Shown in pieces: positions 3,204-60,072 of a stretch of 64,000 bases of DNA. Below the pieces are notes generated by a model. The model was given only the letters and a program-made list of their open reading frames with translations. It made no database searches and had not been told where the DNA came from. The position numbers and the translations under genes were made by a program. The stretch is from an uncultured Actinomycetota bacterium (GTDB taxonomy: Bacteria > Actinomycetota > Actinomycetes > Mycobacteriales > Jatrophihabitantaceae), in contig CAVPSV010000004.1 in NCBI GenBank assembly GCA_963708625.1, positions 321,960 through 385,959 of the forward strand, written 5' to 3'. Each line of letters starts with the position of its first letter. Positions within the stretch are counted from its first letter, which is position 1.

Positions 3204-3385
3204 GCCACCACCTTCGCGCTGGATCTGGTCGTAGAACCTCACCATACGAGCGCGCACGCCTGGGTTGGAGAGCCGAAAAACCTCGATTCCGGGAATCACC
3301 GATTCTCTCCAAAACGGTCCGCCGATCGCGCGAACCGTTCTACGGTCAAGTGAACTCTCGGCTGTCGCGCGAAAGGCGATGCCCC

Positions 3386-4460: not shown

Positions 4461-4486
4461 ACCGACGTACAGGACCAGGCCCGAGC

Positions 4487-6269
4487 ATGGCGCAGCACGC
4501 CGACACCGACGTCGTGGAGATGGCGTGGGATCCGATCACCCGCATCGTCGGCAGCCTCGGCATCTACGCCAGCGTCGACTTCAAGCAGAAGATCGTGCGC
4601 GAGTGCCACAGCACGTCGTCGATCTTCCGCGGCTACAGCATCTTCATGAAGGGCAAGGATCCGCGCGACGCGCACTTCATCACCAGCCGCATCTGCGGCA
4701 TCTGCGGCGACAACCACGCCACCTGCTCGGTGTACGCGCAGAACATGGCCTACGGCGTCGCGCCGCCGCACCTCGGCGAATGGATCATCAACTGCGGCGA
4801 GGCCGCCGAGTACATGTTCGACCACAACATCTTCCAGGAGAACCTGGTCGGCGTGGACTACTGCGAACGGATGGTCCGCGAGACCAACCCGGGCGTGCTC
4901 GAACGCGCCAACAGCACCGAGGCGCCGCACGCCGGCGACCACGGCTACAAGACCATCGGCGACATCATGCGCTCGCTCAACCCGATCGAGGGCGACTTCT
5001 ACCGCGAGGCGCTGCAGGTCAGCCGCTACACGCGCGAGATGTTCTGCCTGATGGAGGGCCGCCACGTCCACCCGTCGACGCTCTACCCGGGCGGCGTCGG
5101 CACCGTCGCCGACCGTGCAGCTGTTCACCGACTACTACATCCGGCTGATGCGCTACATCGAGTTCCTGAAGAAGGTCGTGCCGCTGCACGACGACCTGTT
5201 CGACTTCTTCTACGAGGCGCTGCCCGGCTACGAGCACGTCGGCGAGCGGCGCATCCTGCTCGGCTGCTGGGGCAGCCTGAACGACCCGGCGGTCTGCGAC
5301 TTCAAGTACCAGAACATGACCAACTGGGGACGCGCGATGTTCGTCACCCCCGGCGTCGTCGTCGACGGCAAGCTCGTCACCAACGACCTCGTCGACATCA
5401 ACCTGGGCATGCGCATCCTGCTCGGTCACTCGTTCTACGACGACTGGGAGGGCTCGGGCAACGAGGTCTTCGTCGACCGCGACCCGCTCGGCAACCCGGT
5501 CGACATCCGGCACCCGTGGAACCAGCACACGCTGCCCCAGCCCGCAGAAGCGCGACTTCGACAAGCAAGTACAGCTGGACGATGTCGCCGCGCTGGTTCG
5601 ACGGCACCGACCACCTCGCGCTGGACACCGGCGGCGGCCCGCTCGCCCGGCTGTGGTCGACGGCGCTGTCCGGCCTGGTCGACATCGGCGGACTACGTGA
5701 AGGCAACCGGGCACAGCGTGCAAGTTCGAGCTGCCGCGCACGCGCGCTCAAGCCGGCGGCCAGCTACGAGTGGCAGATCCCGCAGTGGAGCAACGCGCTG
5801 GAGCGCAACCGGGCCCGCACCTACTTCCAGCTCTACGCCGCCGTGCGCCGCGCTGCACTTCGTCGAGATGGGACTGGCCGAGGTACGCGCCGGACGCACC
5901 GAGACGTGGACGCCGTTCACCGTCCCGGACGAGGCGATCGCGGTCGGCTTCACCGAGGCGGTGCGCGGCGTGCTCAGCCACCACATGGTGATCCGCGACG
6001 GCAAGATCGCGAACTACCACCCGTACCCGCCGACGCCGTGGAACGGCAGCGTGCGCGACTGCTACGGCACGCCCGGACCCTACGAGGACGCGGTGCAGAA
6101 CACGCCGATCTTCGAGGAGAACCCGCCGGAGCGGTTCAAGGGCATCGACATCATGCGGGCCGTGCGCAGCTTCGACCCGTGCCTGCCGTGCGGCGTGCAC
6201 ATGTACACCGGCAACGGCGGCAAGGTCGAGCAGGTCCACTCGCCGGCCGTCGCCGTCAAGCCGTACTGA
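4487..6269 (+). pseudogene. hhyL: [NiFe]-hydrogenase large subunit, group 1h/5 type, interrupted by about 5 single-nucleotide insertions
   Basis: L1 motif TSRICGICGDNHATCS and C-terminal L2 motif SFDPCLPCGVH. Conserved segments alternate between frames 2, 0 and 1 (shifts near 5107, 5545, 5709, 5731 and ~5850). Examples: PGGVGTVA|TVQLFTDYY, HPWNQHTLPQP|QKRDFDKQ, ATGHSV|KFELPRT|ALKPAASYEWQIPQW. Confidence 0.85.
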
Positions 6270-6270
6270 C

Positions 6271-6850
6271 ATGGACGGCCACGGACGTCCGAGCGAGCTG
6301 CCCGGCCCGCATCGAGGCGCTGCTGGACGAACTGAGCGCAACTCGGCGACCCGGCGGTCAGCGAGCGGGCCGAGGAACTCGTGGCCGCCGTCGTCACTCT
6401 GTACGGCGCCGGACTCGAACGCATCGTCGAGCTGCTCGGCGCAGCGAGCCGGACGGCGCCGAGCTGCTGCGCCGGCTGTGCCGGCGACGACCTGGTCGCG
6501 AACCTGCTGATGCTGCACGAGCTGCACCCCGACGACGTCGGACGCGCGGGTACAGGCCGCGCTGGACAAGGTCCGGCCGTACCTCGGCTCGCACGCCGGC
6601 GGCATCGAGTTTCTCGGCGTCGATGACGACGGCGTGGCGCAGCTGCGGCTGGAGGGCAGCTGCGACGGCTGCGCCGGCTCGACCGCGACCGTGCAGAACG
6701 CGGTCGAGCGGGCCGTGCTCGAGGCGGCCCCGGAAGTGGTCGAGCGTCGAGGTCGAGGGCATGGTCGAGCCGAAGCCGGCGACTGCCGGTCTGCTGCAGA
6801 TCCGGCATGCGCTGCCCGGACGGCGACTGGCTGAGGCGGTCGGCGCGTGA
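6271..6850 (+). pseudogene. NifU C-terminal-domain (Nfu-like) hydrogenase accessory protein, at least 4 frameshifts
   Basis: Segments RIEALLDEL / LGDPAVSERAEELVAAVVTLYGAGLERIVELLG / VQAALDKVRPYLGSHAGGIEFLGVDDDGVAQLRLEGSCDGCAGSTATVQNAVE / VEVEGMVEPKPATAGLLQI. These lie in three different frames. Confidence 0.55.
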
Positions 6851-6885: not shown

Positions 6886-7506
6886 GGTGCTGCAGCCGCG
6901 CGAGCGGCCGCGGCCCGGCGAGGCGTGCGAGATGTGCGGCGAGCCGATCGCCGAGCCGCACAGCCACGTCGCGAGCCTCAGCGAGCGGCGGCTGCTGTGC
7001 ACCTGCCGCGCCTGCTACCTGCTGTTCACCGCCCAGGGCGCCGGCGCGCCGGCGGCTGCGCGCTGTGCCGGAGCGGGTCGTGCTGGCCAGCGACTTCACC
7101 TTCACCCAGGCGCAGTGGGACGACCTGGCGATTCCGGTCGATCTCGTGTTCCTGTTCCAGCAGAGCGACGTCGACGGACGTCGAGGCCCCGACGGCGCTC
7201 GTCGCCTGCTACCCGAGCCCGGCCGGCGCGACCGAGTCCGAGCTCGACCTCGTCGGCCTGGGCCGACATCGTCGCGGACAACCCGACCCTGGCCGACGTC
7301 GAGCCCGACGTCGAGGCGGTGCTGGTCCGCCGCAACGGCGAGCGGCGACTTCACCTGCCTCGTCGTGCCGATCGACGCCTGCTACGAACTCGTCGGCATC
7401 GTGCGCCAGTACTGGTCCGGCTTCCAGGGCGGCGCCGAGGTGTGGCAGCGCATCGACGACTTCTTCGCCCGGCTGCACACTCGAGCCCGCGGCCCGACGG
7501 GGCTGA
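6886..7506 (+). pseudogene. conserved Cys-rich hydrogenase-associated protein, frameshifted
   Basis: GEACEMCGEPIAEPHSHVASLSERRLLCTCRACYLLFT then RAVPERVVLASDFTFTQAQWDDLAIPVDLVFLFQQSDVD... then GDFTCLVVPIDACYELVGIVRQYWSGFQGGAEVWQRIDDFF. Each piece is in a different frame. Confidence 0.45.
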
Positions 7507-7507
7507 C

Positions 7508-9570
7508 ATGCCTGAGCTCGAGTTCGCCTGCACCGGCGCGCACCCGGACCATCGCGCGGCCGCGCCGACGATCTCGCTGCGCCTGCACATCACCGAAACG
7601 ACCGGCGACGACCGGTGCACGCGCTCGTCGCTGCGCACCCAGATCCGCATCGAACCGCGCAAGCGCCGCTACGACGACACCGAAGCCGAGGCGATGCGCG
7701 ACCTGTTCGGCGAGCGGGCACGGTGGGGCGACACGCTCAAGCCGCTTGCAGCTCGCCTTCGTCAACCAGGTGGTGCCGAGCTTCACCGGCGAGACCGACG
7801 ATCGACGTGGCGCTGCCGTGCAGCTACGACTTCGACGTCGCGGCGAACAAGTACCTCTACGCGCTCGACGACGGCGAGATGCCGCTGCTGCTGCTGTTCA
7901 GCGGCACCGTATTCACCGTCGGGCGCGAACGGCTTCTCGGTCGTAGCCGGTGCCCGTGGGACAAGGAGGCCACCTTCCGGCTGCCGGTCGGCGTCTGGAA
8001 GCAGACGATGCAGCTGCACTTCCCCGGCACGCGCCTGGCTGCGGCTGAGCGAGCGAGACCTTCGACGCGTTGCACCGCTACCGCACCGACCAGCAGCTGC
8101 GTCAGCTGGGACGACGCGATCGACCGGCTGCTGAAGGAGGCCGAGCGAGTGAGCGCGCACGCGTGCACGGCACTCGCGGCGCATGCGATCGCCGACACCG
8201 TGCTGTTCGAGGGCTACATGCTCTACCCGTATCGCGCCAACGATCCGAAGAACCGGGTGCGCTGGCAGTTCGGCGTGCTGGCGCCGCCCGCGTTCGCCGC
8301 CGCGCGACCCGTCCGAGCGCGTCGTTCCTGCAGGCCGACTGCCTGCTCGAGGGCGCGATGTCGAGCTCGAGCGTGCAGGTGCGGTTCCTGCACGTGCAGC
8401 GGCGCACGGTCGAGCGTCTCGACGGCGACGGGTTCCGCGACGTCGACTCCCTCGACGTCGGCGACGCCACCTACCTGCCGTGGGACGAGGCGGTCGTCAC
8501 GAATCCGAGACGACGTTCCGGCTCGCCGACCTCGACGCGGCCGAAGCAGACCACCGCGATCGCGCGCCGATGCCGCGGCCGAGATCGAGGCGCTGTCCGA
8601 CGCCGACGGAGCGATCGTCGGCCGGCTGGCCCGTGCGCGCACGCGCCGCTACCGGACGCGCTGTCGTGCGACGGCCGAGCCGCTGCCCGGTCCCTACGGC
8701 GTCCGGCGGCTGCGGCTGCGGCTGGAGAACACCACGCCATGGAGCCGAGCACTGGATCGGGTGCGCCGGACCGTCCCGACGCGCTGCGGCACGCCCTGGT
8801 CGCCGCGCACCTGCTGCTGTCGGCTGCGCGGCGGCGCGTTCATGTCGCTGATCGACCCGCCGGAATGGGCATCCGGCTACGCCGGCGGCCTGCGAGCAGA
8901 TCGGCGCCTTCCCGGTGCTGGCCGGGCCGGCCGGTGACGCGTCGATCTGTGCTCGCGTCGCCGATCATCCTGTACGACCACCCGAGGTCGCGCCGGAAAG
9001 CGCGTCGCAGTTCTGCGACGCGACCGAGATGGACGAGATGCTGACGCTGCGCACGCTGACGCTGACCGACGAGGAGAAGCGACTACGTGCGCGGCAGCGA
9101 CGCCCGCGGCGCGGCACTGGTCGACGAGGTCGACAACCTGCCGCCCGAGCTGATGGACCGCCTGCACGGCGCGATCCGCTCGATGACGCAGCGTGGCCCG
9201 GCCCGCGGCGGCGACGCCGGCGGCCGTTGCGCCGGACGAGACCCCGCCGTTCGCGAATGCTCCGTTCCTGAACGCGGAAGAGGACGCACGCTTCGACCCG
9301 GAGACCGACGTGGTCATGGTGCAGGGCGTGCCGCTGTCGAAGGGCGCGTCGGTGCGGCTGCGCCCGGGTACGCGGCGCACCGACGCGCAGGACATGTTCC
9401 TGGACGGCCGCAGCGCCACCGTCGAGGCCGTGCTGTTCGACGTCGACGGCGCTACCGCACCTCGCGGTCACGCTGGACGACCTGGTCGAGCTGTCCGAAC
9501 TGGGCTACAACCCGCACGGCCGCTTCCTGTACTTCGCGCCGGACGAGGTCGAGCCGATCGAAGGTGGACG
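7508..9570 (+). pseudogene. one or more conserved hydrogenase-cluster proteins of unknown function, heavily fragmented by frameshifts
   Basis: Frame-hopping conserved-looking segments: MPELEFACTGAHPDH...IRIEPRKRRYDDTEAEAMRDLFGERARWGDTLKPL; LPCSYDFDVAANKYLYALDDGEMPLLLLFSGTVF; RCPWDKEATFRLPVGVWKQTMQLHFPG; LFEGYMLYPYRANDPKNRVRWQFGVLAPP; TEMDEMLTLRTLTLTDEEKRL; ALVDEVDNLPPELMDRLHGAI; VAVTLDDLVELSELGYNPHGRFLYFAPDEVEPIEGG. Gene boundaries not resolvable by eye. Confidence 0.35.
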
Positions 9571-49051: not shown

Positions 49052-49820
49052 CGATCAAGACATGGAGGCTGTCGAGCGGGTGAGCCGGCTGGTGGACGCA
49101 TTGCGGCGCGACGGCCGCGTCGAGGTGGCGACGGCGGCGGTTGAGTTCGGCGCCGCCGAGATGACCATCCGCCGCGACCTCGATCAGCTGGTGGCGCGCG
49201 GTGTGGCGCGTCGCGTGCGCGGCGGGGCGATCAACCTGCTGATGCGCGGCGAGGAGCTGCCTTTCGCGATGCGGGAACTCGACGCGGTGGATGCCAAGCG
49301 GCGGATCGCCCGCGTCGTCGCCGATCTGATCGACGACGGCGAGGCGGTCGGCCTGGACAGCGGAACGACGATGGTGGCGGTGGCGGGTGCGATCGCGGCC
49401 AAACGGGTCACGGTAATGCCGCTGTCGTTACACGCCGCCAGCGCGCTGGCTGCCGGAACGGGAGTCCAGTTGATCATGCCGGGCGGGGCATGCCGGCCCG
49501 GCGAGCTAGCGATGGTGGGCCCACTGGCCCTGGCCAGCATCGCCGCGGTCCGGTTCGACACGGTGGTCATCGGCTGCTGCGGGGTATCCGCCGAGGGACA
49601 CGTGCTGGCTCATGATCTCGGCGATGCCGCGGTGAAGCAGGCGCTGCTCGCTTCGGCCAATCGCAGCGTGCTCGCGCTCGACGGAGCCAAGTTCGGCCGG
49701 GGGGCGCTGGCCGTCGTGCAAGAGGTTTCGACGTTCGATGTCGTTGTCACCGACGACGCCGCGCCGGAGAACGTGCTCGCCCGGCTGCGCGCCGACGGTG
49801 TCGAGGTGCACCGTGCCTGA
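49047..49820 (+). CDS. DeoR-family transcriptional regulator
   Basis: N-terminal HTH (VEVATAAVEFGAAEMTIRRDLDQL) plus C-terminal sugar-phosphate-binding DeoR_C domain. Confidence 0.8.
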   Translation: MYDQDMEAVERVSRLVDALRRDGRVEVATAAVEFGAAEMTIRRDLDQLVARGVARRVRGGAINLLMRGEELPFAMRELDAVDAKRRIARVVADLIDDGEAVGLDSGTTMVAVAGAIAAKRVTVMPLSLHAASALAAGTGVQLIMPGGACRPGELAMVGPLALASIAAVRFDTVVIGCCGVSAEGHVLAHDLGDAAVKQALLASANRSVLALDGAKFGRGALAVVQEVSTFDVVVTDDAAPENVLARLRADGVEVHRA

Positions 49821-49835
49821 GTCAATCGTTTCGTC

Positions 49836-51104
49836 GTGACTCCCGAGGCGACGGCACCTAACGGGATGACACCCGACGCGACGGGCGGCCCACCCTCGTC
49901 GGCGTCGTCACGGCGGCCCTGGCCGCGCATCGCGGTGACCAGCGTGTTCGCGGTGCACGGTCTGTTGTTCGCGTCGTGGACCGCGCACATCCCACACGTG
50001 AAAGCGCGACTCGGCCTGACCGACGGGACGCTCGGCTACGCCCTGCTCGGCGCCCCGATCGGGTCGATCTGCGCGATGCTCGTGGCGGCCTACCTGCTGC
50101 CGCGGGTGGGCAGCCGGCGCGTTGTGCAGATCGCGCTGGTCGGGTACTGCGCCGCCGGGCCGCTGGTCGGGCTCACCGGGAGTCTGGTCGCGTTGATGGG
50201 TGCGTTGTTCGTGTGGGGAGCATTCCAAGGCGCGCTCGACGTAGCCATGAACACGCAGGCGATTGCGGTGGAACGTACCGCTCGCCAGTTGTTGATGTCC
50301 GGGCTGCACGGCACGTGGAGCATCGGCTCGTTCGTCGGCGCGGGTATCGGCGCGGTCGCCGTCGGCGTCGGTATCTCGCTTACCCCCCAACTTCTCGTGC
50401 TCGGCACACTGGCCCTGCTGGCTGCCGGGATGCTGACCACCCGGATGCTGCCCGACGTGGTGGCGCGGCCCGACGCAAACAGCCACGGCCCGCGCAGCGC
50501 CGACCGGAAACCGGCTGGGCCATCGCGGTGGTCGGGCGGAATGGTGCTCCTCGGCGCGATCGCGTTCGCGTGCATGCTGTGCGAAGGTGCCGCTGCCGAC
50601 TGGGCCTCGGTCTATCTGGCCGGGCCACTGCATGCCGCCGGCATTGAGTCCGGCCTCGGCTATGCGTCGTTCGCCTTGGCCATGGTGGCCGTGCGGCTCT
50701 CGGGCAACCGGCTGCTGGCCCGCTACCGGCCGGACCGCCTGCTACCTGCCCTCGCCGCCCTGGCGACAGTGGGCTTCGCTACCGGGTTGCTGATCGGAAA
50801 ACCCGTCGCAGCGATCATTGGATTCGCATTCCTGGGCGCCGGGGTCGCCTCGGTCGTGCCGGCGGTGTTCAGCGCCGCCGGTCGGATCCCCGGGCTGCAC
50901 CCGGGCACCGCCGTCGCCACAGCCTCGGCCTTCGGGTGGTCGGGATTCGTCTGCGGGCCACCGCTGATCGGGCGCCTGGCATCCATATCCTCGCTGTCCA
51001 CCGCGCTGTTCGTGCTGCCCGCACTCACCGCGTTCATCGTCGCGGGCACATCGATCGCACGCGCGCTCAAACCCGAGCCGACCTCTGCTCCGGTCAGGGT
51101 GTGA
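49836..51104 (+). CDS. MFS transporter
   Basis: 12 predicted TM helices, 422 aa, 16 nt downstream of deoR. Confidence 0.75.
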   Translation: MTPEATAPNGMTPDATGGPPSSASSRRPWPRIAVTSVFAVHGLLFASWTAHIPHVKARLGLTDGTLGYALLGAPIGSICAMLVAAYLLPRVGSRRVVQIALVGYCAAGPLVGLTGSLVALMGALFVWGAFQGALDVAMNTQAIAVERTARQLLMSGLHGTWSIGSFVGAGIGAVAVGVGISLTPQLLVLGTLALLAAGMLTTRMLPDVVARPDANSHGPRSADRKPAGPSRWSGGMVLLGAIAFACMLCEGAAADWASVYLAGPLHAAGIESGLGYASFALAMVAVRLSGNRLLARYRPDRLLPALAALATVGFATGLLIGKPVAAIIGFAFLGAGVASVVPAVFSAAGRIPGLHPGTAVATASAFGWSGFVCGPPLIGRLASISSLSTALFVLPALTAFIVAGTSIARALKPEPTSAPVRV

Positions 51105-51356
51105 GGTCCGGGAACAGGGCGATTGCCTGCAGCGCCGCCGCGATGTCGCGTGCAGACCTGGCTAGGCACTTCCCGCCGCGGGAGTCGATCGGCTGATCGG
51201 CTCCGGGTGACAACGCAGAACGGTGTGGCGATCGAGGCTGCCCCGGAAGCCGTCGGCGCGACCCGGCGGGCGCCGGTTTGGCGGTGGCGCGTGGCCCGTC
51301 GGCGATTCGAGGCCCGGCGGAGGCAACCTGGCCGGATAGGAGTACGACCTACAGTC

Positions 51357-52046
51357 ATGCAACGACTACGTGTCGCCGCGATCGTCGCCGGTCTCGGCCT
51401 GACCGGGGCAGTGGCCTGCAGTGCCGGATCCACGCCGGCCGCCCGCGGTTCCGTGTCGCCGCCGTCGGCCACGAGTCATGCGTTGAGCGGTTCGCACCCG
51501 GGCGCGACGGCCTCGGCCACCGGCACGAGCACTTCCGCGAACCCGATCGCGAACCCCATCGCGGACCCGGGCGCGGCCACCACGACGCCGAGCGCGGCGA
51601 CGCTCGTCAGCTATGTCCGCACCGGCCGCGCCGTTTCCGGCGCCGGCTATCGGGTGGGGGCGTCCGCGCCGGGCCAGCCCATGATCGCGACTCCGGGCGT
51701 CGACGAGTTCACGACACCGAGCGGCAACATCTCCTGCGGGATCCTCGGTTCCGGCGTCCAGGTCACGTGCTCGGTAAAGGACTACTCCTTTGCGACACCG
51801 GCCCGGCCGGCGAACTGCCAGCTCAACTACGCGCCGGGATGGGTGAGCCTCGACTCGTCCGGCGTGACCCGTTCGCTGTGCCTGGGCGGGCCGCCGTTCG
51901 CACCGATCAGCCGCACGCTGTCCTACGGATCGACACTGTCCGAGGGCCAGCTGTCCTGCCGAAGTGAGGCGGCGTTCCTGGCCTGCGCCGACACCGGCAC
52001 CGGCCACGGCTTCGTCGTCAACCGCACCGCGTTGACGACGTACTGA
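51357..52046 (+). CDS. lipoprotein, unknown function
   Basis: MQRLRVAAIVAGLGLTGAVACSAG lipobox. Ser/Thr/Pro/Ala linker then a Cys-containing globular domain. Confidence 0.45.
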   Translation: MQRLRVAAIVAGLGLTGAVACSAGSTPAARGSVSPPSATSHALSGSHPGATASATGTSTSANPIANPIADPGAATTTPSAATLVSYVRTGRAVSGAGYRVGASAPGQPMIATPGVDEFTTPSGNISCGILGSGVQVTCSVKDYSFATPARPANCQLNYAPGWVSLDSSGVTRSLCLGGPPFAPISRTLSYGSTLSEGQLSCRSEAAFLACADTGTGHGFVVNRTALTTY

Positions 52047-52060
52047 CGAAGCCGTGTGCG

Positions 52061-52804
52061 TCAATCCTTCGTGCCGGGCCAGCTCCTGCGCGTGATCAGT
52101 CCGCGGTCGACCAGATCCAGGAACGCGTTGATCAGCGTTTCCTGAGCGGCAGGCGCTTCGCCGGCCAACGGACCGAGAAGTAGCCCCGACAGGCCGTGTA
52201 CGGCGGCCCACGCGTTGGTGGCGGCGATGTCGCGGTCCGCTTCGTCCAAGACCCCCGCGTCGAGCATGCCATCGAGTGCCTTGCCGAGAATTTCGTACGG
52301 ACCAAGACCTGAGTCGCCGACACCCCGCGGTCCATCAGCCTTGTCAGCGGCATTGCCGGCCCCGCGAGGCGGCGCATCGCCGACCTGCGCGGCCCCCTTG
52401 CGCGGCGCGAACGCAGTGGCGAACAGCCCAGGTTCGGCTAGCGCGAAGTGGATGTAACCACGTCCCACCGCGTCCAGCCTCGCGATGGCGTCGGACCCCG
52501 CCTGCCCGGTGGGCTGGCATTTCGCCAGCTCAGCTTCCATCGAGCGTGCCAACGCGGACAGGGCGTCGGCGGCCACCGCCTGGACCAGATCGGGTAGCGA
52601 GCCAAAATGCCGGTACGCCGCGTTCGCCGAGACGCCGACTCGCCGGGCCGCTTCGCGCAGCACGATTGCGGCCGGTCCGCCCTCACGGGCGAGCTCGATG
52701 CCCGCCTGCACCAGGGCGTGACGCAGGTTGCCGTGGTGATACGGCCCGAGCCGACTCGCGTCCGATGTCGTCACGACACGCAATGTTGACAGCGTGAACT
52801 TCAT
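52061..52804 (-). CDS. TetR-family transcriptional regulator
   Basis: GNLRHALVQAGIELAREGGPAAIVLREAARRVGVSANAAYRHFGS is a TetR_N HTH. Divergent from mmpL. Confidence 0.8.
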   Translation of the reverse strand: MKFTLSTLRVVTTSDASRLGPYHHGNLRHALVQAGIELAREGGPAAIVLREAARRVGVSANAAYRHFGSLPDLVQAVAADALSALARSMEAELAKCQPTGQAGSDAIARLDAVGRGYIHFALAEPGLFATAFAPRKGAAQVGDAPPRGAGNAADKADGPRGVGDSGLGPYEILGKALDGMLDAGVLDEADRDIAATNAWAAVHGLSGLLLGPLAGEAPAAQETLINAFLDLVDRGLITRRSWPGTKD

Positions 52805-52828
52805 GTGGCAAGTTCACGCTGTCAACAT
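52783..52828. promoter_or_regulatory. perfect 19-bp inverted repeat (ATGTTGACAGCGTGAACTT-N8-AAGTTCACGCTGTCAACAT), candidate TetR operator
   Basis: Read directly from the sequence. Overlaps the tetR start codon and lies 18 nt upstream of the mmpL GTG/RBS. Confidence 0.6.
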
Positions 52829-52846
52829 CGAGCGAGGGAGTTCGCC

Positions 52847-54994
52847 GTGTTCTACCGCCTCGGTCTCAAGATCTTCGCCCGAGCACGGCTGGTACTGACG
52901 CTGGGCGTTCTCGCACTTGTCGTCGCGGCCGCTCTGGGCATCGGCGCGTTCGGAAGATTGCTCAGCGGCGGGTTCGACGACCCGTCCTCCTCGTCGAGCC
53001 AGGCGAAGGTGCTGTTGGACCACAAGTTCGGCGGCGACCCAGACCTGATCTTCCTCGTCCAGGCTCGCGACGGCAGCGTCGACAGCCCTGCGGTCCGCAT
53101 GGCCGGCCAGCAGCTGACCAGCAGGTTGAGCGCCGACGACAGATTGCGCGGCGTCACCTCGTACTGGGCGAACGGGTCACCCGGACTGCGATCGCGCGAC
53201 GGGAGCGACGCACTGATTCTGGCCAACGTCCTCGGCGACGAGCAGACCGCCGACAAGAACTCCACCGGCCTGCTGAAGGACTACGCCCACCTCGACAACG
53301 CTGCGGTGACCGTGCGCATCGGTGGCGAGCAGGGCACCGATATCGGCACCCAGGTCGGCAAGGACCTCGCCGTCGCCGAGAGCATCGCCGTGCCCATCAC
53401 CGTGCTCCTGATGATCATCGTGTTCGGCAGCCTGGTCGCGTCCCTGCTGCCGTTGGCAATCGGCGTGCTCGCGATCCTCGCCACCTTCGCGACTCTTGAT
53501 CTGCTCACCCATGTCACCAACGTCAGCATCTTCGCCATCAACCTGGCCACCGGTCTCGGTCTCGGCCTCGGGATGGACTACGCCCTGCTGATGGTCAGCC
53601 GCTTCCGGGAAGAACTGGCCAAGGGAATACCCGTTCGCGACGCGGTGGCGCGCACGATGTCCACCGCCGGGCGCACCATCGCGTTCTCAGCGCTCGCCGT
53701 CGCCGCCGCCTTGTCCGCGATGCTGGTGTTCCCGGTGTACTTCCTCAAGTCGTTCGCCTATGCCGGCGTCAGCGTCACCATCTTCTCGGCGGCCAGCGCA
53801 CTGCTGGTCCTGCCGGCGTTGCTCGGGGTGCTCGGCGGACGGGTCAACTCCGGGCGCGTTCGCGGGATACGCCCGATGCGTAGCGTCGAAGCGCCATTCT
53901 GGGGCAAGCTGGCCGCCGCCGTGATGCGCCGCCCCGTCGTGGCTGCGCTGCCGGTGGTCGCGGTGCTGCTCTTTCTGGCGACGCCGCTGCTGTCGGTCAC
54001 GTTCGGCACCCCGGACGAGCGGGTGCTGCCCACCAACGCAGCGAGCCACCGGGTCGGGGATGTCCTGCGCACCGACTTCGCCACTACCCCGGACGTGATT
54101 GACGTACTGATCACCCCCGCCCTCGCACAGCCGGAGCTGGACAGCTACACCCAGCAACTAGGCCGGCTCAGCGGTGTGCAACGAACGACCGTGAGCGTCG
54201 GCAACGGTCCGGCCGGGCAGCCGGTTACACAACGAGTGAGCCTGAGCACCGGACTGGACTCCGCCTCCGGCGCGGCGCAACACCTGGTGCGGCAGGTGCG
54301 CGCGGTGCCGGTGCCTGCCGGAACCACAGCGCTCGTCGGCGGCGCCACGGCGACCCTCGTCGACGCGAAGCACGCGATCAGCTCGCACCTGCTGTTGGCC
54401 GGCGGGCTGATCGTGGCGACCACGTTCATCCTGCTGTTCCTGTTCACCGGCAGCATCCTGCAACCGCTGCGCGCGCTGCTCGGCAACGCGCTCACCCTCG
54501 GCGCGACGCTCGGCACCATGGTGTGGATCTTCCAGGACGGGCACTTCTCCTCCGTCCTGGGCTTCACGCCACGGCCTACCGACACCGCGATGCCGGTGCT
54601 GTTGTTCTGCATCGCGTTCGGGCTCTCGATGGACTACGAGCTGTTCGTCATCAGCCGGATCAAGGAACTGCACGATTCCGGCGAGCCCAACGCGCAGTCC
54701 GTCACGGCCGGCCTGGCGCGCACCGGACGTATCGTCTCGACGCTCGCCGCGCTGCTCTCGGTCGGTTTCTTCGCCTTCGGGACCAGCCACGTCAGCTTCA
54801 TCCAATTGTTCGGGCTGGGTACCGGGCTGGCGATCCTCATCGACGCCACGCTGGTGCGCGGCGTCCTGGTCCCCGCTTTCATGCGCGCGTTCGGCGAGCG
54901 GAGTTGGTACGCGCCACCGCTCATGCGCCGGATCCACGACCGAATCGGCGTCAACGAGGCGCCGTCCGACGCACGACGCCTGGTCCATGCCTGA
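52847..54994 (+). CDS. mmpL: MmpL-family (RND superfamily) membrane transporter
   Basis: Two 6-TM bundles each followed by periplasmic loops. MMPL signature blocks (GMDYALLMVSRFREE, GLSMDYELFVISRIKE). GTG start with GAGGGAG RBS (an alternative GTG lies at 52805). Confidence 0.8.
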   Translation: MFYRLGLKIFARARLVLTLGVLALVVAAALGIGAFGRLLSGGFDDPSSSSSQAKVLLDHKFGGDPDLIFLVQARDGSVDSPAVRMAGQQLTSRLSADDRLRGVTSYWANGSPGLRSRDGSDALILANVLGDEQTADKNSTGLLKDYAHLDNAAVTVRIGGEQGTDIGTQVGKDLAVAESIAVPITVLLMIIVFGSLVASLLPLAIGVLAILATFATLDLLTHVTNVSIFAINLATGLGLGLGMDYALLMVSRFREELAKGIPVRDAVARTMSTAGRTIAFSALAVAAALSAMLVFPVYFLKSFAYAGVSVTIFSAASALLVLPALLGVLGGRVNSGRVRGIRPMRSVEAPFWGKLAAAVMRRPVVAALPVVAVLLFLATPLLSVTFGTPDERVLPTNAASHRVGDVLRTDFATTPDVIDVLITPALAQPELDSYTQQLGRLSGVQRTTVSVGNGPAGQPVTQRVSLSTGLDSASGAAQHLVRQVRAVPVPAGTTALVGGATATLVDAKHAISSHLLLAGGLIVATTFILLFLFTGSILQPLRALLGNALTLGATLGTMVWIFQDGHFSSVLGFTPRPTDTAMPVLLFCIAFGLSMDYELFVISRIKELHDSGEPNAQSVTAGLARTGRIVSTLAALLSVGFFAFGTSHVSFIQLFGLGTGLAILIDATLVRGVLVPAFMRAFGERSWYAPPLMRRIHDRIGVNEAPSDARRLVHA

Positions 54995-55033
54995 CGCACG
55001 GCCCGACCCACCCGCTGACCAGGAGCTGCCGAC

Positions 55034-56947
55034 ATGACCTACCGCGAAACCAACCTGATCGACACGATCGAGCGACTGTCCGGGATGGACCTCGACACCC
55101 TGACCCAAGCTCAACGAGACCAGTTCGACCAGTTCCACAGCGGCGGCAGCGAGGCCGTCGACCGGCTGCTGCCGAGCCTGCACGCGGCGGCGGGCCTGAC
55201 CGTGCTCGACGTCGGCTCAGGGTTCGGCGGACCGGCACGCCAGATCGCCCGCAGTGCCGGCTGCACCGTTGTCGGCATCGACATCACCGCCGCCTACGTC
55301 GACGCCGCCCGGGCGCTGACCCGCGCCGCCGGCCTCGACGGGCAGGTCAGCTTTACCTGCACCGACATCGCAGCGCTCGAAAGCTTCGACTTCGATGCCG
55401 CGTACACCATGCACGTCCAGATGAACGTCGAGGACAAGAAGAGCTTCTTCGGCGAGATCGCCCGACGGCTGCGGCCGGGTGCGCACTTCGCCACCTTCGA
55501 GGTCTGCCGCACCGGTGCGAGCCGACCGAGCCTTCCCCTACCGTGGTCACTCGACGGCTCGGACAGTCACCTCGCCACCGCGCAGGAGCTGTGCGACACG
55601 ATCACGTCGAGTGGTTTCGAGCTGCTGGAATGGGTGGACGAGACGGCGTGGGTCGTGGATTGGTTTGCGGGGGTAGCCGAGCGTACGGCGTTGGCCGCCA
55701 GCTCAGCGATCCTGCCGGCGCTGCTCGACGACGGACCAGGGCGCATGATGAACTTCGCCGTGGCCCTCAACGCCGGCGTGGTCGTCGATTCAGCGCGGCT
55801 CGTTCATCCGGCGCGCAACACCGAGGCATCCGTAATGGTCGACGCGAATGATCGGACGCCAGCGACACGCGGCACCGAGGCTGCCGGGCTGGCCACGCGA
55901 ACTGCGTCAAGCCTGGCCGTCTCGGACGAATTCGATGCCGACGGCCTATACCTCGACACCGCGACCATGGGACTGCCGCCGCGCCGTACCGTCGACGCAC
56001 TGCACACGACCCTCGATCGCTGGCAACGCGGGCTCAGCAGCGCTACCGACTTCGACGAGGCGGTGAACCGATCGCGCGCCAGCTATGCGGCATTGGTGGG
56101 CATCGATCCCGCCGCCGTCGCGATCGGGCCGCAGGTAAGCGTCTTCAGCGGCCAGATCGCAGCATCACTTCCCGCCGGTGCCGAAGTGATCACTGCCTGC
56201 AATGAGTTCACCAGCGTGACGTTCCCGTTCTGGGCCCGCGGTTTGAACGTGCGAGAGGTCCCGCTGCTCGGTATCGCCGACGCACTGACCGAGCGGACCG
56301 CCATGGTCGTGGTCTCCGCGGTGCAGTCGGCCGACGGCACAGTGCTCGACCTCGACGCCGTGCTCGGCGCCGCCGCTCGGACGAGGACCAAGGTGTTGCT
56401 GGATACCACCCAAGCGGTCGGCTGGCTGCCGGTCGACGCGTCGCTAGTCGACTACACGGTCTGCGGCGGCTACAAGTTCCTCCTCGCACCTCGGGGCACG
56501 GCGTTTCTGACGGTACGTCCGGACCTGTTCGCCGAGACACCCGCTGGCAACGCCAACTGGTATGCCGGCGAACAACCATGGGACTCGATCTACGGCGGAC
56601 CGCTTCGGCTGGCCACCAACGCGCGGCGCTTCGACATCTCACCGGCCTGGCATTCGTGGGTTGGGCAAGCCGCCAGCCTGGACCTACTCACCGAGGTGGG
56701 CACGTCCACCTTGCACCGGCACGCGTTGAGGCTGGCCAACGGTTTCCGGCACGCGATGGGCCTCGCGGCCGGCAACAGCGCGATCGTGAGTGTCGAGGTC
56801 GTGGGCGATGTAGACGCCACCCTGCGCGCGACACATCTTCGAGCGGCCTCCCGCAACGGCAGACTCCGCCTTGCCTTCCACCTCAACAACACCGATAACG
56901 ACCTCGACCACGCGGTGGCGGCGCTGCGGGAGCACGTAGTGCGGTGA
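55034..56947 (+). CDS. fusion protein: class I SAM-dependent methyltransferase (N) + class V PLP-dependent aminotransferase/C-S lyase-like domain (C)
   Basis: MTase motif I VLDVGSGFGGPARQIA (residues ~60-280). C-terminal ~350 aa with class-V fold features and candidate PLP-Lys in TVCGGYKFLLAPRGTAFL. Confidence 0.6.
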   Translation: MTYRETNLIDTIERLSGMDLDTLTQAQRDQFDQFHSGGSEAVDRLLPSLHAAAGLTVLDVGSGFGGPARQIARSAGCTVVGIDITAAYVDAARALTRAAGLDGQVSFTCTDIAALESFDFDAAYTMHVQMNVEDKKSFFGEIARRLRPGAHFATFEVCRTGASRPSLPLPWSLDGSDSHLATAQELCDTITSSGFELLEWVDETAWVVDWFAGVAERTALAASSAILPALLDDGPGRMMNFAVALNAGVVVDSARLVHPARNTEASVMVDANDRTPATRGTEAAGLATRTASSLAVSDEFDADGLYLDTATMGLPPRRTVDALHTTLDRWQRGLSSATDFDEAVNRSRASYAALVGIDPAAVAIGPQVSVFSGQIAASLPAGAEVITACNEFTSVTFPFWARGLNVREVPLLGIADALTERTAMVVVSAVQSADGTVLDLDAVLGAAARTRTKVLLDTTQAVGWLPVDASLVDYTVCGGYKFLLAPRGTAFLTVRPDLFAETPAGNANWYAGEQPWDSIYGGPLRLATNARRFDISPAWHSWVGQAASLDLLTEVGTSTLHRHALRLANGFRHAMGLAAGNSAIVSVEVVGDVDATLRATHLRAASRNGRLRLAFHLNNTDNDLDHAVAALREHVVR

Positions 56948-57139
56948 ACGGCCATCGGCCAGGCGACGTCTGCTGTGGACGAGTAGCGCATGGGCGTCGA
57001 ACACGCAGCCGCAGCGAGGTTCCCCGCCCTCACCAGTCAGACGCGCCAGCGTGCCGGCGGGGAGCGCTTGCGGGTCGTACTTTGCGGTGCGACACCGAGG
57101 TCGGCAACTCTGTAGCCCGCGGGTTCGGCCCGCGCCTGG

Positions 57140-57364
57140 TCAAGACTTCTTTGTGGAGCGCTTCTTGCCGATGCTGGGGAATCGCTTCTTCACCGCGGCC
57201 CTAACCTTCTTCTGCTCGGCGGGCGTGCCGTTCTGGGCGACCCGCGCCAGTGCGTTGCGGGCGTGCGCCTTGTCCGGGATCGGATACTTGCGCTTGCCGG
57301 GCAGCGCGAACGATTTCTTGCTCAGCTTCTTACGTTCCTTCGTCCCACTGAGGTCCTTAGCCAT
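57140..57364 (-). CDS. small Lys-rich basic protein
   Basis: 74 aa, MAKDLSGTKERKKLSKKSFALPGKRKYPIPDKAHARNALAR.... Confidence 0.35.
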   Translation of the reverse strand: MAKDLSGTKERKKLSKKSFALPGKRKYPIPDKAHARNALARVAQNGTPAEQKKVRAAVKKRFPSIGKKRSTKKS

Positions 57365-57569: not shown

Positions 57570-58496
57570 ATGCCGCCGATCCTTCGTGGACGTAGATCCC
57601 GACTGCGAGGTCAGCTGCTGGTGACCGCGCTGGCGACGGCAGCCGTTGTTGCGGGTGGTCTCGTCGTGGCGAAGGGTGCCACGGCTGCGGGGCCGTTGAA
57701 TTACGTCGCGATGGGCGACTCGTACAGCACGGTCGGCAAGCTCACCTCGGTGGCCCATGGTTCGCCGCCAGAATGTGGCCGCGACACCGACAGTTACCCC
57801 TTCGTCGTCGCCCACGCACTCGGCGCATCACTGACCGACGTTGCCTGCGGCGGTGCGGTGTCAGCGAGTCTGACCGGCTCGCAATACCCGGGGGTACCGC
57901 CTCAATTGGCCGCTCTCAGCCCGTCGACGGACATTGTGACGATCACTATCGGTGGCAACGACAACAGCAAGAATCCGTCCGACCCGAACTCCGCCGATGG
58001 CTTCTTGGCCCAGTTCATCCTCAAGTGCGGAGCCGCCGACCTGGCACATCTGTGGACCGGAACCCCCTGCAAGAACATGTACCAGGCGCAATTGCAGACG
58101 TTGCTCGCCGCCGAGAAGCCGATCATCGACGCAGATTTCACTGAAATCGACGCCGCCGCACCGAACGCGGCCCTCTTCGTCATCGGCTACGCCGACATCC
58201 TGCCGCAGACGGGCGCCTGCTTCCCGACGATCCCGCTGTCAGTCGGTGACACGGCGTTCATGAACGGCATCGAGGTACAGATCAATCAGCTCGCCGCAGC
58301 CGCGGCGGCGGCCCACCACGCCACCTTCGTCGACGCCTACACACTCTCGATCGGGCACGACGCCTGCCAGCCCGAACGCAACCGCTGGGTCGAACCACTG
58401 ATCCCTGGCACCGACGCCGCTCCGGTCCACCCGAACGCGAAGGGCCAGCGTGCAATCGGGACATTCGTCGCGGCCACCATCGCCGCTCAACTGTGA
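57570..58496 (+). CDS. secreted SGNH/GDSL hydrolase (lipase/esterase)
   Basis: Signal peptide. Block I AMGDSYST (GDS-x). Later G and DxxH blocks (...DACQPERNRWVEPLIPGTDAAPVHPN). Confidence 0.75.
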   Translation: MPPILRGRRSRLRGQLLVTALATAAVVAGGLVVAKGATAAGPLNYVAMGDSYSTVGKLTSVAHGSPPECGRDTDSYPFVVAHALGASLTDVACGGAVSASLTGSQYPGVPPQLAALSPSTDIVTITIGGNDNSKNPSDPNSADGFLAQFILKCGAADLAHLWTGTPCKNMYQAQLQTLLAAEKPIIDADFTEIDAAAPNAALFVIGYADILPQTGACFPTIPLSVGDTAFMNGIEVQINQLAAAAAAAHHATFVDAYTLSIGHDACQPERNRWVEPLIPGTDAAPVHPNAKGQRAIGTFVAATIAAQL

Positions 58497-59335: not shown

Positions 59336-59417
59336 GCGCCCATGGTCGGGCGCGGGCGAGGTCGACGTCATGAGTACATGTGCTCAATCCGGTCGACGAC
59401 GTCGCAGCGATTCGCCT

Positions 59418-60072
59418 TTACTCGCTCATGCCCGTCTCGATCGCCCATCTGGTGAGTTCGACCTTGTTGTGAAGTTGAAGCTTTCGCAGCGTGTTCTGGA
59501 CGTGGTTCTGGACTGTGCGGTGTGAGACGACCAACCGATCGGCAACCTGCCTCGCGGTGAGCCCCTTCGCGACCAACCTCAAGATCTCCGTCTCGCGTTC
59601 GGTCAGGAGCGGGGCGTTGCTCGGTGGTCTCGGACAGCATTCGCTGGTACTCGCCCAGGACGAGCGCGGCGAGACCGGGCGAGAAGATCGCCTCCCCCTC
59701 GGCGGTGCGGCGAACTGCGTCTACCAGCCCGTCGGCCGGCGTGGACTTCACTAAGTAACCGCGCGCCCCCGCCTGCGCCGCGGCGAGGACATCGCTGTCC
59801 TCGCCGGACGAGGACAACATCAACACTCGGACTGATGGATCGGCTCGCACAATGTGAGCGGTCGCATCGACTCCGGTCATCGCGTGCAGTTGTAGATCCA
59901 TGAGAACCACGTCAGGACGGACAGCGGGTGCAACGCGTACTGCGGTCTCGCCGTCTCCGATGCATGCGACCACCTCGAACCCGGCGGCGGTCAGATCTCG
60001 TTCGACCGCCGCGCGCCAGATCGGGTGGTCGTCAACAATCATCACTCGTGTCCGCGCGGCGCCGGCCATCAC
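59418..60072 (-). pseudogene. NarL/FixJ-family response regulator, +1 frameshift in a C4 run near 59640
   Basis: Receiver domain VMIVDDHPIWRAAV...VVLMDLQL in the ORF frame. The LuxR HTH (LTERETEILRLVAKGLTARQVADRLVVSHRTVQNHVQNTLRKLQLHNKVELTRWAIETGMSE) is in the neighbouring frame. Confidence 0.75.

What the first reader, a model, noticed from the sequence alone, without database searches (positions are those of the whole stretch)
52061..56947. TetR - perfect 19-bp palindrome - MmpL - methyltransferase/aminotransferase fusion
ATGTTGACAGCGTGAACTT-N8-AAGTTCACGCTGTCAACAT (52783-52828) is a flawless inverted repeat overlapping the tetR start and sitting 18 nt upstream of the mmpL RBS. This is textbook repressor-operator geometry. 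Forty nt downstream of mmpL is a single 637-aa ORF fusing a class I SAM-MTase to a class V PLP-dependent aminotransferase/lyase-like domain. I have not seen this domain combination described. It may modify the MmpL substrate or be a biosynthetic enzyme for an exported lipid/siderophore-like compound.
Basis: partly seen in the sequence, partly recalled or inferred. Interest (0 to 1): 0.55.

Follow-up and report, generated by a model that had tools for sequence, protein, structure and literature searches.

The report
TetR operator real; enzyme fusion spurious
The palindrome is a real, evolutionarily conserved but ordinary repressor binding site controlling a membrane exporter gene, whereas the "novel" methyltransferase-aminotransferase fusion comes from one extra base in an error-prone assembly and exists nowhere else.

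Summary
The sequence observations hold. The 19-nt perfect inverted repeat is at 52783-52801 / 52810-52828, and a 637-aa ORF (55034-56947) hits both Methyltransf_25/11 and Aminotran_5.

The palindrome is a strongly conserved operator. It consists of two 15-bp dyads, GTTNAC-N3-GTNAAC. These occur only between divergent tetR and mmpL, and only in loci that keep the orthologous TetR (23 of 23 against 0 of 20). This spans Frankiales, Pseudonocardiales, Acidothermaceae, Kribbella, Streptomyces and Catenulispora. It is a new member of a known kind, comparable to MAB_4384/MmpL5.

The fusion is not a real domain architecture. A Logan contig matches 2886 nt of the window exactly, apart from a 36-nt patch. 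It lacks one G (window 55784) and encodes separate MTase (266 aa) and aminotransferase (370 aa) genes overlapping as TAATG. Removing that G restores the family's conserved MTase C-terminus. Of 85 related MTase loci, seven have the aminotransferase downstream, and none is fused. No protein among the 150 best of 1.84 billion representatives matches both halves.

The same window carries at least seven other single-base insertions in its [NiFe]-hydrogenase large-subunit gene. The fusion is therefore most likely an assembly artefact, or at most a very recent frameshift. Interest is low.

The parts
52061..52774 (-). tetR (237 aa from the conserved GTG start; the longest ORF would extend to ATG 52804)
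   Evidence: Pfam TetR_N 28.8 bits (cutoff 24) and TetR_C_33 36.4 bits (cutoff 26.8). A start codon occupies this column in nearly all of the 17 aligned orthologous loci; L004 has ATG there.
52783..52828 (.). 46-bp operator region: perfect 19-nt inverted repeat with an 8-nt spacer
   Evidence: Nearly invariant across 17 loci whose MmpL proteins are 64-88% identical, while the flanks diverge.
52785..52799 (.). Operator sub-site O1, a 15-bp dyad GTTGAC-AGC-GTGAAC. It contains a TTGACA hexamer (52786-52791).
   Evidence: Pattern GTTNAC-N3-GTNAAC has only 2 hits in the window, with 0.00 expected. The only variable base of the arm is the dyad centre.
52812..52826 (.). Operator sub-site O2, a 15-bp dyad GTTCAC-GCT-GTCAAC, centred 27 bp from O1
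   Evidence: Centre-to-centre spacing is 27-28 nt in close relatives and 35-43 nt in Catenulispora/Streptomyces-type loci.
52834..52840 (+). mmpL ribosome-binding site GAGGGAG
   Evidence: Read. GGAG is invariant in alignment A2.
52847..54994 (+). mmpL (715 aa, GTG start); an MmpL3-like RND transporter without the long C-terminal domain
   Evidence: PF03176, 231.5 bits, two repeats. PDB MmpL3 7nvh, E 7e-99. The NCBIfam MmpL3 equivalog cutoff is not reached (373.6 against 1400).
55034..55835 (+). Class I SAM-dependent methyltransferase gene. It is frameshifted in this assembly at 55784. The ancestral stop TAA at 55833-55835 lies in the +1 frame.
   Evidence: Deleting G55784 gives exactly the 266-aa protein P0121 of contig L001.
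55780..55814 (+). 36-nt patch holding the only 4 differences from contig L001 (2886 nt): G/C at 55780, extra G at 55784, G/T at 55802, C/T at 55814
   Evidence: All three substitutions are synonymous third-position changes in the ancestral MTase frame.
55823..55826 (+). GAGG Shine-Dalgarno for the aminotransferase gene, 8 nt before its ATG
   Evidence: Read. A GAGG is also present at the same place in L045 and L046.
55835..56947 (+). Class-V-fold PLP-dependent enzyme gene (370 aa, own ATG). It overlaps the MTase stop as TAATG.
   Evidence: P0001 is 100% identical and called as a stand-alone 370-aa protein. Aminotran_5, 52.6 bits. The GYK lysine aligns with the GHK of 8kg1/1elq.

Best explanation
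The locus is a conventional TetR-controlled exporter operon.

Regulation:
- tetR (52774 to 52061, minus strand) and mmpL-MTase-aminotransferase (52847-56947, plus strand) are transcribed divergently from a 72-nt intergenic region.
- That region holds two 15-bp dyads, GTTGAC-N3-GTGAAC and GTTCAC-N3-GTCAAC, centred 27 bp apart. Together they form the perfect 46-bp palindrome.
- Inferred mechanism: one TetR dimer binds each dyad. Each dyad carries a TTGACA hexamer that could serve as a -35 box for the promoter reading across it. Bound repressor would therefore block both promoters, autoregulating tetR and repressing the exporter operon, until a still unknown ligand releases it.

The 637-aa 'fusion':
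- It is not a biological domain architecture.
- It arises from one extra G at 55784, 16 codons before the methyltransferase stop. This shifts the MTase reading frame into that of the downstream aminotransferase gene, whose ATG overlaps the MTase stop (TAATG).
- The true gene products are a 266-aa MTase and a 370-aa PLP enzyme, translationally coupled but separate.
- The extra base is most likely a consensus error of the assembly.
For: Operator:
- The palindrome is unique in the window and far beyond chance.
- In 43 genome loci fetched with the MmpL, all 23 with an orthologous divergent TetR carry the 15-bp motif in the tetR-mmpL spacer. None of the 20 without that TetR carries it, and there is no hit elsewhere in about 520 kb.
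- The nine metagenome or genome loci analysed whose TetR is 66-84% identical also carry the pair.
- In a 17-locus alignment, 31 of the 38 arm positions are invariant while the flanks diverge. The one variable base per arm is the centre of the 15-bp dyad, and it does not covary between the arms.
- Distant relatives keep two dyads at 35-43 nt spacing, so the dyad is the unit, not the long hairpin.

Fusion:
- L001 (Logan, run ERR11523676) equals window 54428-57314 except for 4 changes in 36 nt. It encodes MT (266 aa) and AT (370 aa) separately.
- L047, from the same run, is 100% identical to window 49746-53550.
- Removing G55784 restores the C-terminal motif GVVS[IV][QH]RGSF. All nine stand-alone homologues in alignment A3 have it, as do at least 73 of the 82 surveyed MTases with a complete C-terminus.
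- Seven loci have MT followed by AT. In all seven the genes are in different frames and the MT has its own stop.
- The best 150 of 10,778 hits among 1.84 billion representatives match either aa 1-250 or aa ~285-635, never both.
- AT homologues at ~60% identity lie in unrelated contexts.

Error-prone assembly:
- The window's [NiFe]-hydrogenase large subunit aligns at 95.5% identity over 600 aa to P0276 only if about seven single-base insertions (5112-5844), plus one two-base shift near its start (4478), are allowed.
- DUF5947 and DUF6084 are each split between frames.
Against: - No binding experiment exists. The consensus promoter scan found no sigma-70-like promoter in the spacer, so the promoter-occlusion geometry is inferred.
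- The three substitutions flanking the extra G are all synonymous in the ancestral frame. This looks like genuine strain polymorphism rather than random error, so the window may represent a real second haplotype, and the extra G could be a real mutation in it.
- I could not retrieve the reads or the identity of the source record.
- The 637-aa ORF is present as a called protein in NCBI/ENA.
Confidence: 0.85

Rival explanations
1. The extra G is a real, very recent +1 frameshift in one strain. That strain makes a 637-aa polypeptide: an MTase lacking its last 16 residues, 17 out-of-frame residues, and then the complete PLP enzyme. The PLP enzyme may also be translated alone from its own SD/ATG.
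For: - The neighbouring three differences from L001 are synonymous third-position changes, suggesting a genuine distinct haplotype.
- The rest of the locus (6.7 kb) shows no other discrepancy with the Logan contigs.
- A TAATG overlap makes fusion by a single upstream frameshift easy.
Against: - The same window shows at least seven single-base insertions in one hydrogenase gene that still encodes a 95.5%-identical protein once corrected. This is the signature of consensus error, not decay.
- The frameshift removes a motif conserved in nearly all of the 82 MTase homologues with a complete C-terminus.
- No relative is fused.
- The synonymous pattern itself shows that the ancestral frame was the selected one until essentially now.
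Confidence: 0.12
2. The 637-aa ORF is an evolved bifunctional methyltransferase/PLP enzyme that tailors the MmpL substrate.
For: - Both domains score above the Pfam thresholds in one ORF.
- The MT and AT genes are adjacent and overlapping in seven loci, and the MT often follows this MmpL (13 of 44 loci with enough upstream sequence), so co-expression is plausible.
Against: - It is a singleton: 0 of 7 MT-AT loci are fused.
- No two-domain hit appears among the 150 best of 1.84 billion representatives.
- A near-identical contig has two genes.
- The 'linker' is out-of-frame MTase coding sequence plus the AT's own N-terminus and SD.
- The AT is absent from most TetR-MmpL(-MT) loci, and its homologues sit in unrelated contexts.
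Confidence: 0.02
3. The palindrome acts as a nucleic-acid hairpin or cruciform (RNA attenuator or terminator) rather than as a protein operator.
For: A perfect 19-bp stem with an 8-nt loop would be very stable.
Against: - It lies between the 5' ends of divergent genes, so it cannot be a terminator.
- The variable arm positions change independently, without compensatory covariation. For example L002, L003, L004, L006, L007 and L035 have non-complementary centres.
- Distant relatives keep two self-symmetric 15-bp dyads at 35-43 nt spacing, sometimes in the same orientation, which cannot form the hairpin.
- Motif presence tracks TetR presence perfectly.
Confidence: 0.03

Closest known systems
MAB_4384 (TetR) / mmpS5-mmpL5 of Mycobacterium abscessus (PMC5895659)
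   Same: A TetR-family repressor is encoded divergently from an MmpL exporter operon. A palindromic operator lies in the shared intergenic region. The published model has two dimers on the operator repressing both transcription units.
   Different: - The published operator is 27 bp (two degenerate 13-nt repeats with a 1-nt spacer). Here there are two 15-bp dyads 27 bp apart, 46 bp in total.
- There is no mmpS gene here.
- The MmpL is a 715-aa MmpL3-like protein, not MmpL5-like.
- The hosts include non-mycolate actinomycetes.
- No experimental data exist.
M. tuberculosis TetR regulators of mmpL genes (Rv1816, PDB 5d1r; also Rv3249c and Rv0302, from my own knowledge)
   Same: TetR-family proteins that control mmpL transcription. 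Rv1816 is a weak sequence hit (E 6e-4).
   Different: The sequence similarity is marginal. The best PDB hits are uncharacterised TetRs (3on2, 3bjb). The operator sequences are unrelated as far as I know; this was not tested.
QacR-IR1 type binding of two TetR dimers to one long palindrome (own knowledge, not tested here)
   Same: A long inverted repeat that exceeds the footprint of one dimer and overlaps a promoter.
   Different: QacR dimers bind overlapping sites on a 28-bp repeat. Here the two dyads are separate and individually symmetric, with variable spacing in relatives.
MmpL3 trehalose-monomycolate exporter (PDB 7nvh, 6n40)
   Same: MMPL/RND fold with two MMPL repeats.
   Different: It falls below the NCBIfam MmpL3 equivalog cutoff (373.6 against 1400). 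It lacks the C-terminal domain. Orthologues occur in Kribbella, Streptomyces and Frankiales, which (own knowledge) make no mycolic acids, so the substrate must differ.
Cysteine desulfurase / C-DES cyst(e)ine C-S lyase / EgtE group of class-V PLP enzymes
   Same: Aminotran_5 fold. The PLP lysine aligns with GHK of 8kg1 and 1elq.
   Different: All NCBIfam equivalog scores are far below their cutoffs (EgtE 37.5 against 400; SufS 36 against 475). The substrate is unknown.
Chimeric ORFs created by indel errors in long-contig metagenome-assembled genomes
   Same: A single-base insertion upstream of overlapping stop/start codons merges two genes. The same contig shows many further insertions in conserved genes. 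Related MAG loci (L010, L014, L032, L035, L040, L044) also show frame breaks.
   Different: The sequencing technology and the reads of the source record could not be checked.

Membership tests
TetR family repressor | N-terminal TetR-type HTH above the Pfam gathering score | tested here: met
   PF00440, 28.8 bits against cutoff 24; PF13305 TetR_C_33, 36.4 bits against 26.8.
TetR family repressor | Dyad-symmetric operator next to the regulated or own gene, conserved with the regulator | tested here: met
   Two 15-bp dyads. The motif is present in 23 of 23 loci with the orthologous TetR and in 0 of 20 without it.
TetR family repressor | Specific DNA binding, relieved by a small-molecule ligand | not testable with these tools
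   Needs EMSA or footprinting and a ligand screen.
MMPL (RND) transporter | Two MMPL repeats above the Pfam gathering score | tested here: met
   PF03176, 231.5 bits, 2 stretches. PDB MmpL3, E 7e-99.
MmpL3 orthologue (TMM exporter) | Score at or above the NCBIfam equivalog cutoff | tested here: not met
   NF052608, 373.6 bits against cutoff 1400.
Class I SAM-dependent methyltransferase | Rossmann-type SAM-binding domain with a GxGxG motif | tested here: met
   Methyltransf_25, 57.2 bits; Methyltransf_11, 56 bits. VLDVGSGFGG is invariant in A3.
Class I SAM-dependent methyltransferase | Intact conserved C-terminal segment GVVS[IV][QH]RGSF of this subfamily | tested here: not met
   The window ORF diverges at aa 251. 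The motif is present only in the +1 frame.
Class-V (fold type I) PLP enzyme | Aminotran_5 domain with the Schiff-base lysine | tested here: met
   PF00266, 52.6 bits. The K of GGYKF aligns with the GHK of 8kg1/1elq.
EgtE / SufS / CsdA / kynureninase equivalogs | NCBIfam equivalog cutoff reached | tested here: not met
   All scores are 18-39 bits against cutoffs of 246-800.
Genuine bifunctional MTase-PLP fusion protein | Same in-frame architecture in independent sequence of the same organism | tested here: not met
   L001 is identical apart from the 36-nt patch and has two genes overlapping as TAATG.
Genuine bifunctional MTase-PLP fusion protein | Architecture conserved in relatives | tested here: not met
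   0 of 7 MT-AT loci are fused. No two-domain hit appears among the best 150 of 1.84 billion representatives. The longer AT homologues carry no MTase.
Genuine bifunctional MTase-PLP fusion protein | Read-level support for the fused frame | not testable with these tools

The most novel reading that the evidence does not exclude
The extra G at 55784 is real. On this reading the window captures a gene fusion at birth. A +1 frameshift in one soil actinomycete strain has just welded a C-terminally damaged SAM-methyltransferase to a complete class-V PLP enzyme, across a TAATG stop/start overlap. The unfused allele still circulates in the same population (contig L001).
Probability: 0.1. Interest if true: 0.3.

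Novelty: new member of a known kind. Interest (0 to 1): 0.15.

Why it matters
There are three practical lessons.

1. The 637-aa "fusion" is already deposited as a predicted protein. It should not be propagated as a new domain architecture. It illustrates how single-base insertions in long-contig MAGs turn translationally coupled genes into chimeric ORFs.

2. The TetR/two-dyad operator/MmpL module, often with the methyltransferase, is conserved across several actinobacterial orders that (own knowledge) lack mycolic acids. The operator consensus GTTSAC-N3-GTSAAC x2 can be used to annotate this regulon and to design EMSA or reporter assays aimed at finding the exporter's substrate.

3. None of this overturns current understanding.

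Tried and rejected
- **Promoter and terminator scans.** The consensus scan of the tetR-mmpL spacer found no sigma-70-like site. The scan of the operon's 3' part found no promoter-like site and two weak terminator-like sites within chance expectation. The TTGACA/-10 assignments therefore remain inference.
- **Folding downstream of the AT gene.** No terminator-like structure; z = 0.62.
- **Source record.** Looking up P0122 to name the source record returned "not on record".
- **Exact-pattern scan.** A scan of JGI metagenome contigs for either allele of the 55775-55800 region gave 0 hits.
- **GC3 frame-plot.** A frame-plot of the whole window, meant to find frameshifts automatically, was too noisy. 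I replaced it with Pfam split-domain detection and a frameshift-aware protein-DNA alignment.
- **Function of the MT and AT.** NCBIfam and PDB sequence searches gave only sub-threshold or generic hits.
- **Programmed ribosomal frameshifting at 55784.** Rejected. I see no recognisable slippery sequence (GTC GTC GAT), and the unshifted allele exists.
- **Error in L001 instead of the window.** Rejected. L001's frame recovers a 10-residue motif conserved in nearly all homologues, plus the stop/start overlap seen in relatives.
- **RNA hairpin or cruciform role for the palindrome.** Rejected for lack of covariation and because of the variable dyad spacing.
- **A conserved MT-AT enzyme pair.** Rejected. 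AT homologues at ~60% identity have unrelated neighbours, and only 6 of the 57 MT loci with enough downstream sequence have the AT.
Full report
**1. What is in the sequence**

The inverted repeat ATGTTGACAGCGTGAACTT / AAGTTCACGCTGTCAACAT is at 52783-52801 and 52810-52828, with an 8-nt spacer and 100% complementarity.
- It is the only match to its arm in the 64-kb window even with three mismatches allowed, against 0.00 expected in shuffles.
- All perfect inverted repeats of 12 nt or more with a short loop in the window come from this element. Twenty first-order Markov simulations gave none at 14 nt.

- a TetR on the minus strand (PF00440 and PF13305);
- an MMPL protein (PF03176, 231 bits, two repeats; GTG 52847 to 54994);
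- in ORF 55034-56947 (637 aa), Methyltransf_25/11 at aa 57-153 and Aminotran_5 at aa 379-569.

Small corrections:
- The palindrome ends 18 nt before the mmpL start codon and only 5 nt before its RBS GAGGGAG.
- The gap between the mmpL stop and the next ATG is 39 nt.
- The tetR start that overlaps the palindrome loop (ATG 52804) is merely the longest ORF.

**2. The operator**

A scan of one genome per species with the MmpL protein returned 43 loci. tblastn shows a divergent orthologous TetR in 23 of them. These cover Frankiales, Pseudonocardiales, Acidothermaceae, Kribbella, Streptomyces, Catenulispora, Actinacidiphila and uncultured Actinomycetota.

Conservation of the spacer:
- The upstream regions show the palindrome conserved almost base for base, while the surrounding sequence diverges.
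- In a 17-locus alignment, 31 of the 38 arm positions are invariant. The MmpL proteins of these loci are only 64-88% identical, and the TetRs 50-75%.
- The alignment fixes the tetR start at the GTG at window 52774. GTCAC is conserved there, and L004 has ATG at the same column. The loop ATG is absent from many loci. The palindrome is therefore entirely intergenic, within 52775-52846.

Each 19-nt arm is itself a 15-bp dyad of the form GTTSAC-N3-GTSAAC.
- The pattern GTTNAC-N3-GTNAAC has exactly two hits in the window, 52785-52799 and 52812-52826, with 0.00 expected.
- Across about 520 kb of fetched loci it occurs only in the tetR-mmpL spacer. It is present in all 23 TetR-bearing loci and in none of the 20 loci without that TetR.
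- The nine further loci with a TetR 66-84% identical also carry the pair.
- The single variable base in each arm is the centre of the 15-bp dyad. It varies independently in the two arms, with no covariation.
- In Catenulispora- and Streptomyces-type loci the two dyads are 35-43 nt apart instead of 27-28 nt.

These facts favour two protein-binding dyads, one TetR dimer each, over a hairpin. The window's "flawless" 46-bp symmetry is partly incidental.

Each dyad contains TTGACA on the strand reading toward the opposite gene. I infer, but have not shown, that these hexamers are -35 boxes of the divergent promoters and that bound TetR occludes both. The consensus promoter scan found nothing.

The closest characterised system is MAB_4384 with mmpS5/mmpL5 in M. 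abscessus. It has a divergent TetR, a 27-bp palindromic operator, and a two-dimer model (PMC5895659). The present case is a new member of that known kind.

**3. The "fusion"**

*Homologues of the 637-aa ORF.* The 120 best hits in a 5.8-billion-protein search are all stand-alone Aminotran_5 proteins of about 350-460 aa. The top hit, P0001, is 100% identical but only 370 aa.

*The near-identical contig.*
- P0001's contig L001 (Logan assembly of run ERR11523676, 2886 nt) carries a 266-aa methyltransferase gene and the 370-aa gene as separate ORFs overlapping by one base, TAATG.
- L001 equals window 54428-57314 except for four changes confined to 36 nt: G/C at 55780, an extra G at 55784 in the window, G/T at 55802 and C/T at 55814.
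- A second contig from the same run, L047, is 100% identical to window 49746-53550. The two sources therefore represent the same population.
- Without G55784 the window encodes exactly the L001 methyltransferase. All three substitutions are synonymous third-position changes in that frame.

*Conservation of the lost C-terminus.*
- The residues lost through the frameshift form the motif GVVS[IV][QH]RGSF, followed within about 5-20 residues by a stop.
- All nine stand-alone homologues aligned have it (39-100% identical over the aligned stretch). The window ORF departs from them at aa 251.
- At least 73 of the 82 MTases with a complete C-terminus in a wider survey match it by a strict pattern, and most of the rest match by eye.

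*Survey of relatives.*
- That survey covered 80 metagenome loci plus five loci fetched earlier. Seven loci have the aminotransferase downstream of the methyltransferase: L001, L045, L046, L053, L055, L061 and L062.
- In all seven the two genes are in different frames and the methyltransferase ends at its own stop.
- An exhaustive HMMER search of 1.84 billion cluster representatives with the 637-aa ORF gave 10,778 hits. Each of the best 150 matches either aa 1-250 or aa ~285-635, never both.
- The few longer aminotransferase homologues carry no methyltransferase.
- Caveat: a fused member could hide in a cluster represented by a single-domain protein, as the window's own ORF does.

*Independent translation of the aminotransferase.* It has its own GAGG Shine-Dalgarno 8 nt before its ATG, and this is conserved in L045 and L046.

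**4. Artefact or real mutation?**

The window itself shows that its assembly carries many single-base insertions.
- Pfam finds the [NiFe]-hydrogenase large-subunit domain, DUF5947 and DUF6084 each split between two reading frames within 4.6-8.2 kb.
- The source record's own gene call for the large subunit is a 384-aa fragment, whereas nearly all listed homologues are about 580-605 aa.
- tblastn shows the frame changing at 5110/5112, with a second-frame match at 5450-5836.
- A frameshift-aware protein-DNA alignment recovers 95.5% identity to P0276 over all 600 residues. It does so only by allowing seven single-base insertions between 5112 and 5844, plus a two-base shift at 4478.

A gene that still encodes a 95%-identical protein after correction of seven frameshifts has not decayed. 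The insertions are therefore consensus errors, of the same type (+1 nt) as G55784. Several related long-contig MAG loci show similar frame breaks in MmpL or TetR.

On the other side, the three synonymous substitutions beside G55784 look like true strain polymorphism. The window may be a second haplotype, and a real, very recent frameshift cannot be excluded.

My estimates are about 0.85 for artefact, about 0.12 for a real recent frameshift allele, and 0.02 or less for an evolved bifunctional enzyme.

**5. Function of the operon**

- The conserved core is TetR-operator-MmpL. In most relatives the gene after mmpL is convergent.
- In the window's subclade a methyltransferase follows the MmpL: 13 of 44 loci with enough upstream sequence, including L046, L056, L058, L059, L063 and L065.
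- The aminotransferase is a further add-on, in 6 of the 57 loci with enough downstream sequence.
- The MmpL resembles MmpL3 (PDB 7nvh, E 7e-99). It is far below the MmpL3 equivalog cutoff, and it occurs in non-mycolate actinomycetes.
- The methyltransferase resembles small-molecule MTases (4pne, 6uv6, PEAMT).
- The PLP enzyme retains the Schiff-base lysine but reaches no equivalog cutoff.
- A methylate-and-export or tailoring role is plausible. It rests only on gene linkage.

**6. Verdict**

The palindrome observation is confirmed and its interpretation upheld and refined, but it is textbook biology. The fusion, which was the reason for the finding's interest score, is not a real feature of the protein family. 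It is most probably not a real feature of the organism either. Overall interest is low (0.15).

Noticed in passing
window 4400-6300 (+): The [NiFe]-hydrogenase large-subunit gene is riddled with single-base insertions. A frameshift-aware alignment to the 600-aa homologue P0276 gives 95.5% identity. It requires +1 events near 5112, 5542, 5570, 5694, 5722, 5744 and 5844, plus a +2 event near 4478. The public gene call is a 384-aa fragment (P0275).
   Followed up: yes
window 6900-8200 (+): The hydrogenase-associated genes DUF5947 and DUF6084 are each split between two reading frames, with switches near 7340 and 7750-7795. These are further probable indel errors.
   Followed up: partly
window 3173-6850 (+): One stop-free frame contains both the hydrogenase small subunit (Oxidored_q6, aa 92-265) and the N-terminus of the large subunit (aa 486-565). 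This may be another artefactual read-through like the MT-AT case.
   Followed up: no
L010, L014, L032, L035, L040, L044 (MAG loci named 'MFD...bin'): tblastn hits to MmpL, TetR and the MT are broken into several pieces in different frames. For example, the L014 MmpL shifts at 5501/5503, and the L035 MT and MmpL fall into several pieces. This suggests that these long-contig MAGs share an indel-error problem.
   Followed up: partly
L056, L058, L059, L063, L065, L089, L046 and others: The gene order TetR-operator-MmpL-methyltransferase recurs in many soil metagenome contigs (MmpL 81-88% identical). The MT, but not the aminotransferase, is therefore a frequent operon partner of this MmpL.
   Followed up: partly
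window 55780-55814: The only four differences from contig L001 in 2886 nt cluster within 36 nt. The three substitutions are all synonymous in the ancestral MTase frame. This may be a short recombination tract or a strain-mixing point where the consensus also gained a base.
   Followed up: partly
window 49836-52046 (+): Upstream of tetR lie an MFS_1 transporter (422 aa) and a 229-307-aa ORF with no Pfam hit. It is unknown whether they belong to the same regulon. No operator motif lies near them.
   Followed up: no
window 57570-58496 (+) and 59368-60072 (-): A GDSL-like lipase/acylhydrolase (308 aa) and a response regulator receiver protein lie downstream of the operon. A link to the exporter was not examined.
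   Followed up: no
L018, L021 (Streptomyces / Actinacidiphila loci): The two operator dyads (GTTGACGCCGTTAAC / GTTAACNCCGTTAAC) are 41-43 nt apart and no longer form one long inverted repeat. The operator architecture has drifted while the dyad sequence is kept.
   Followed up: partly
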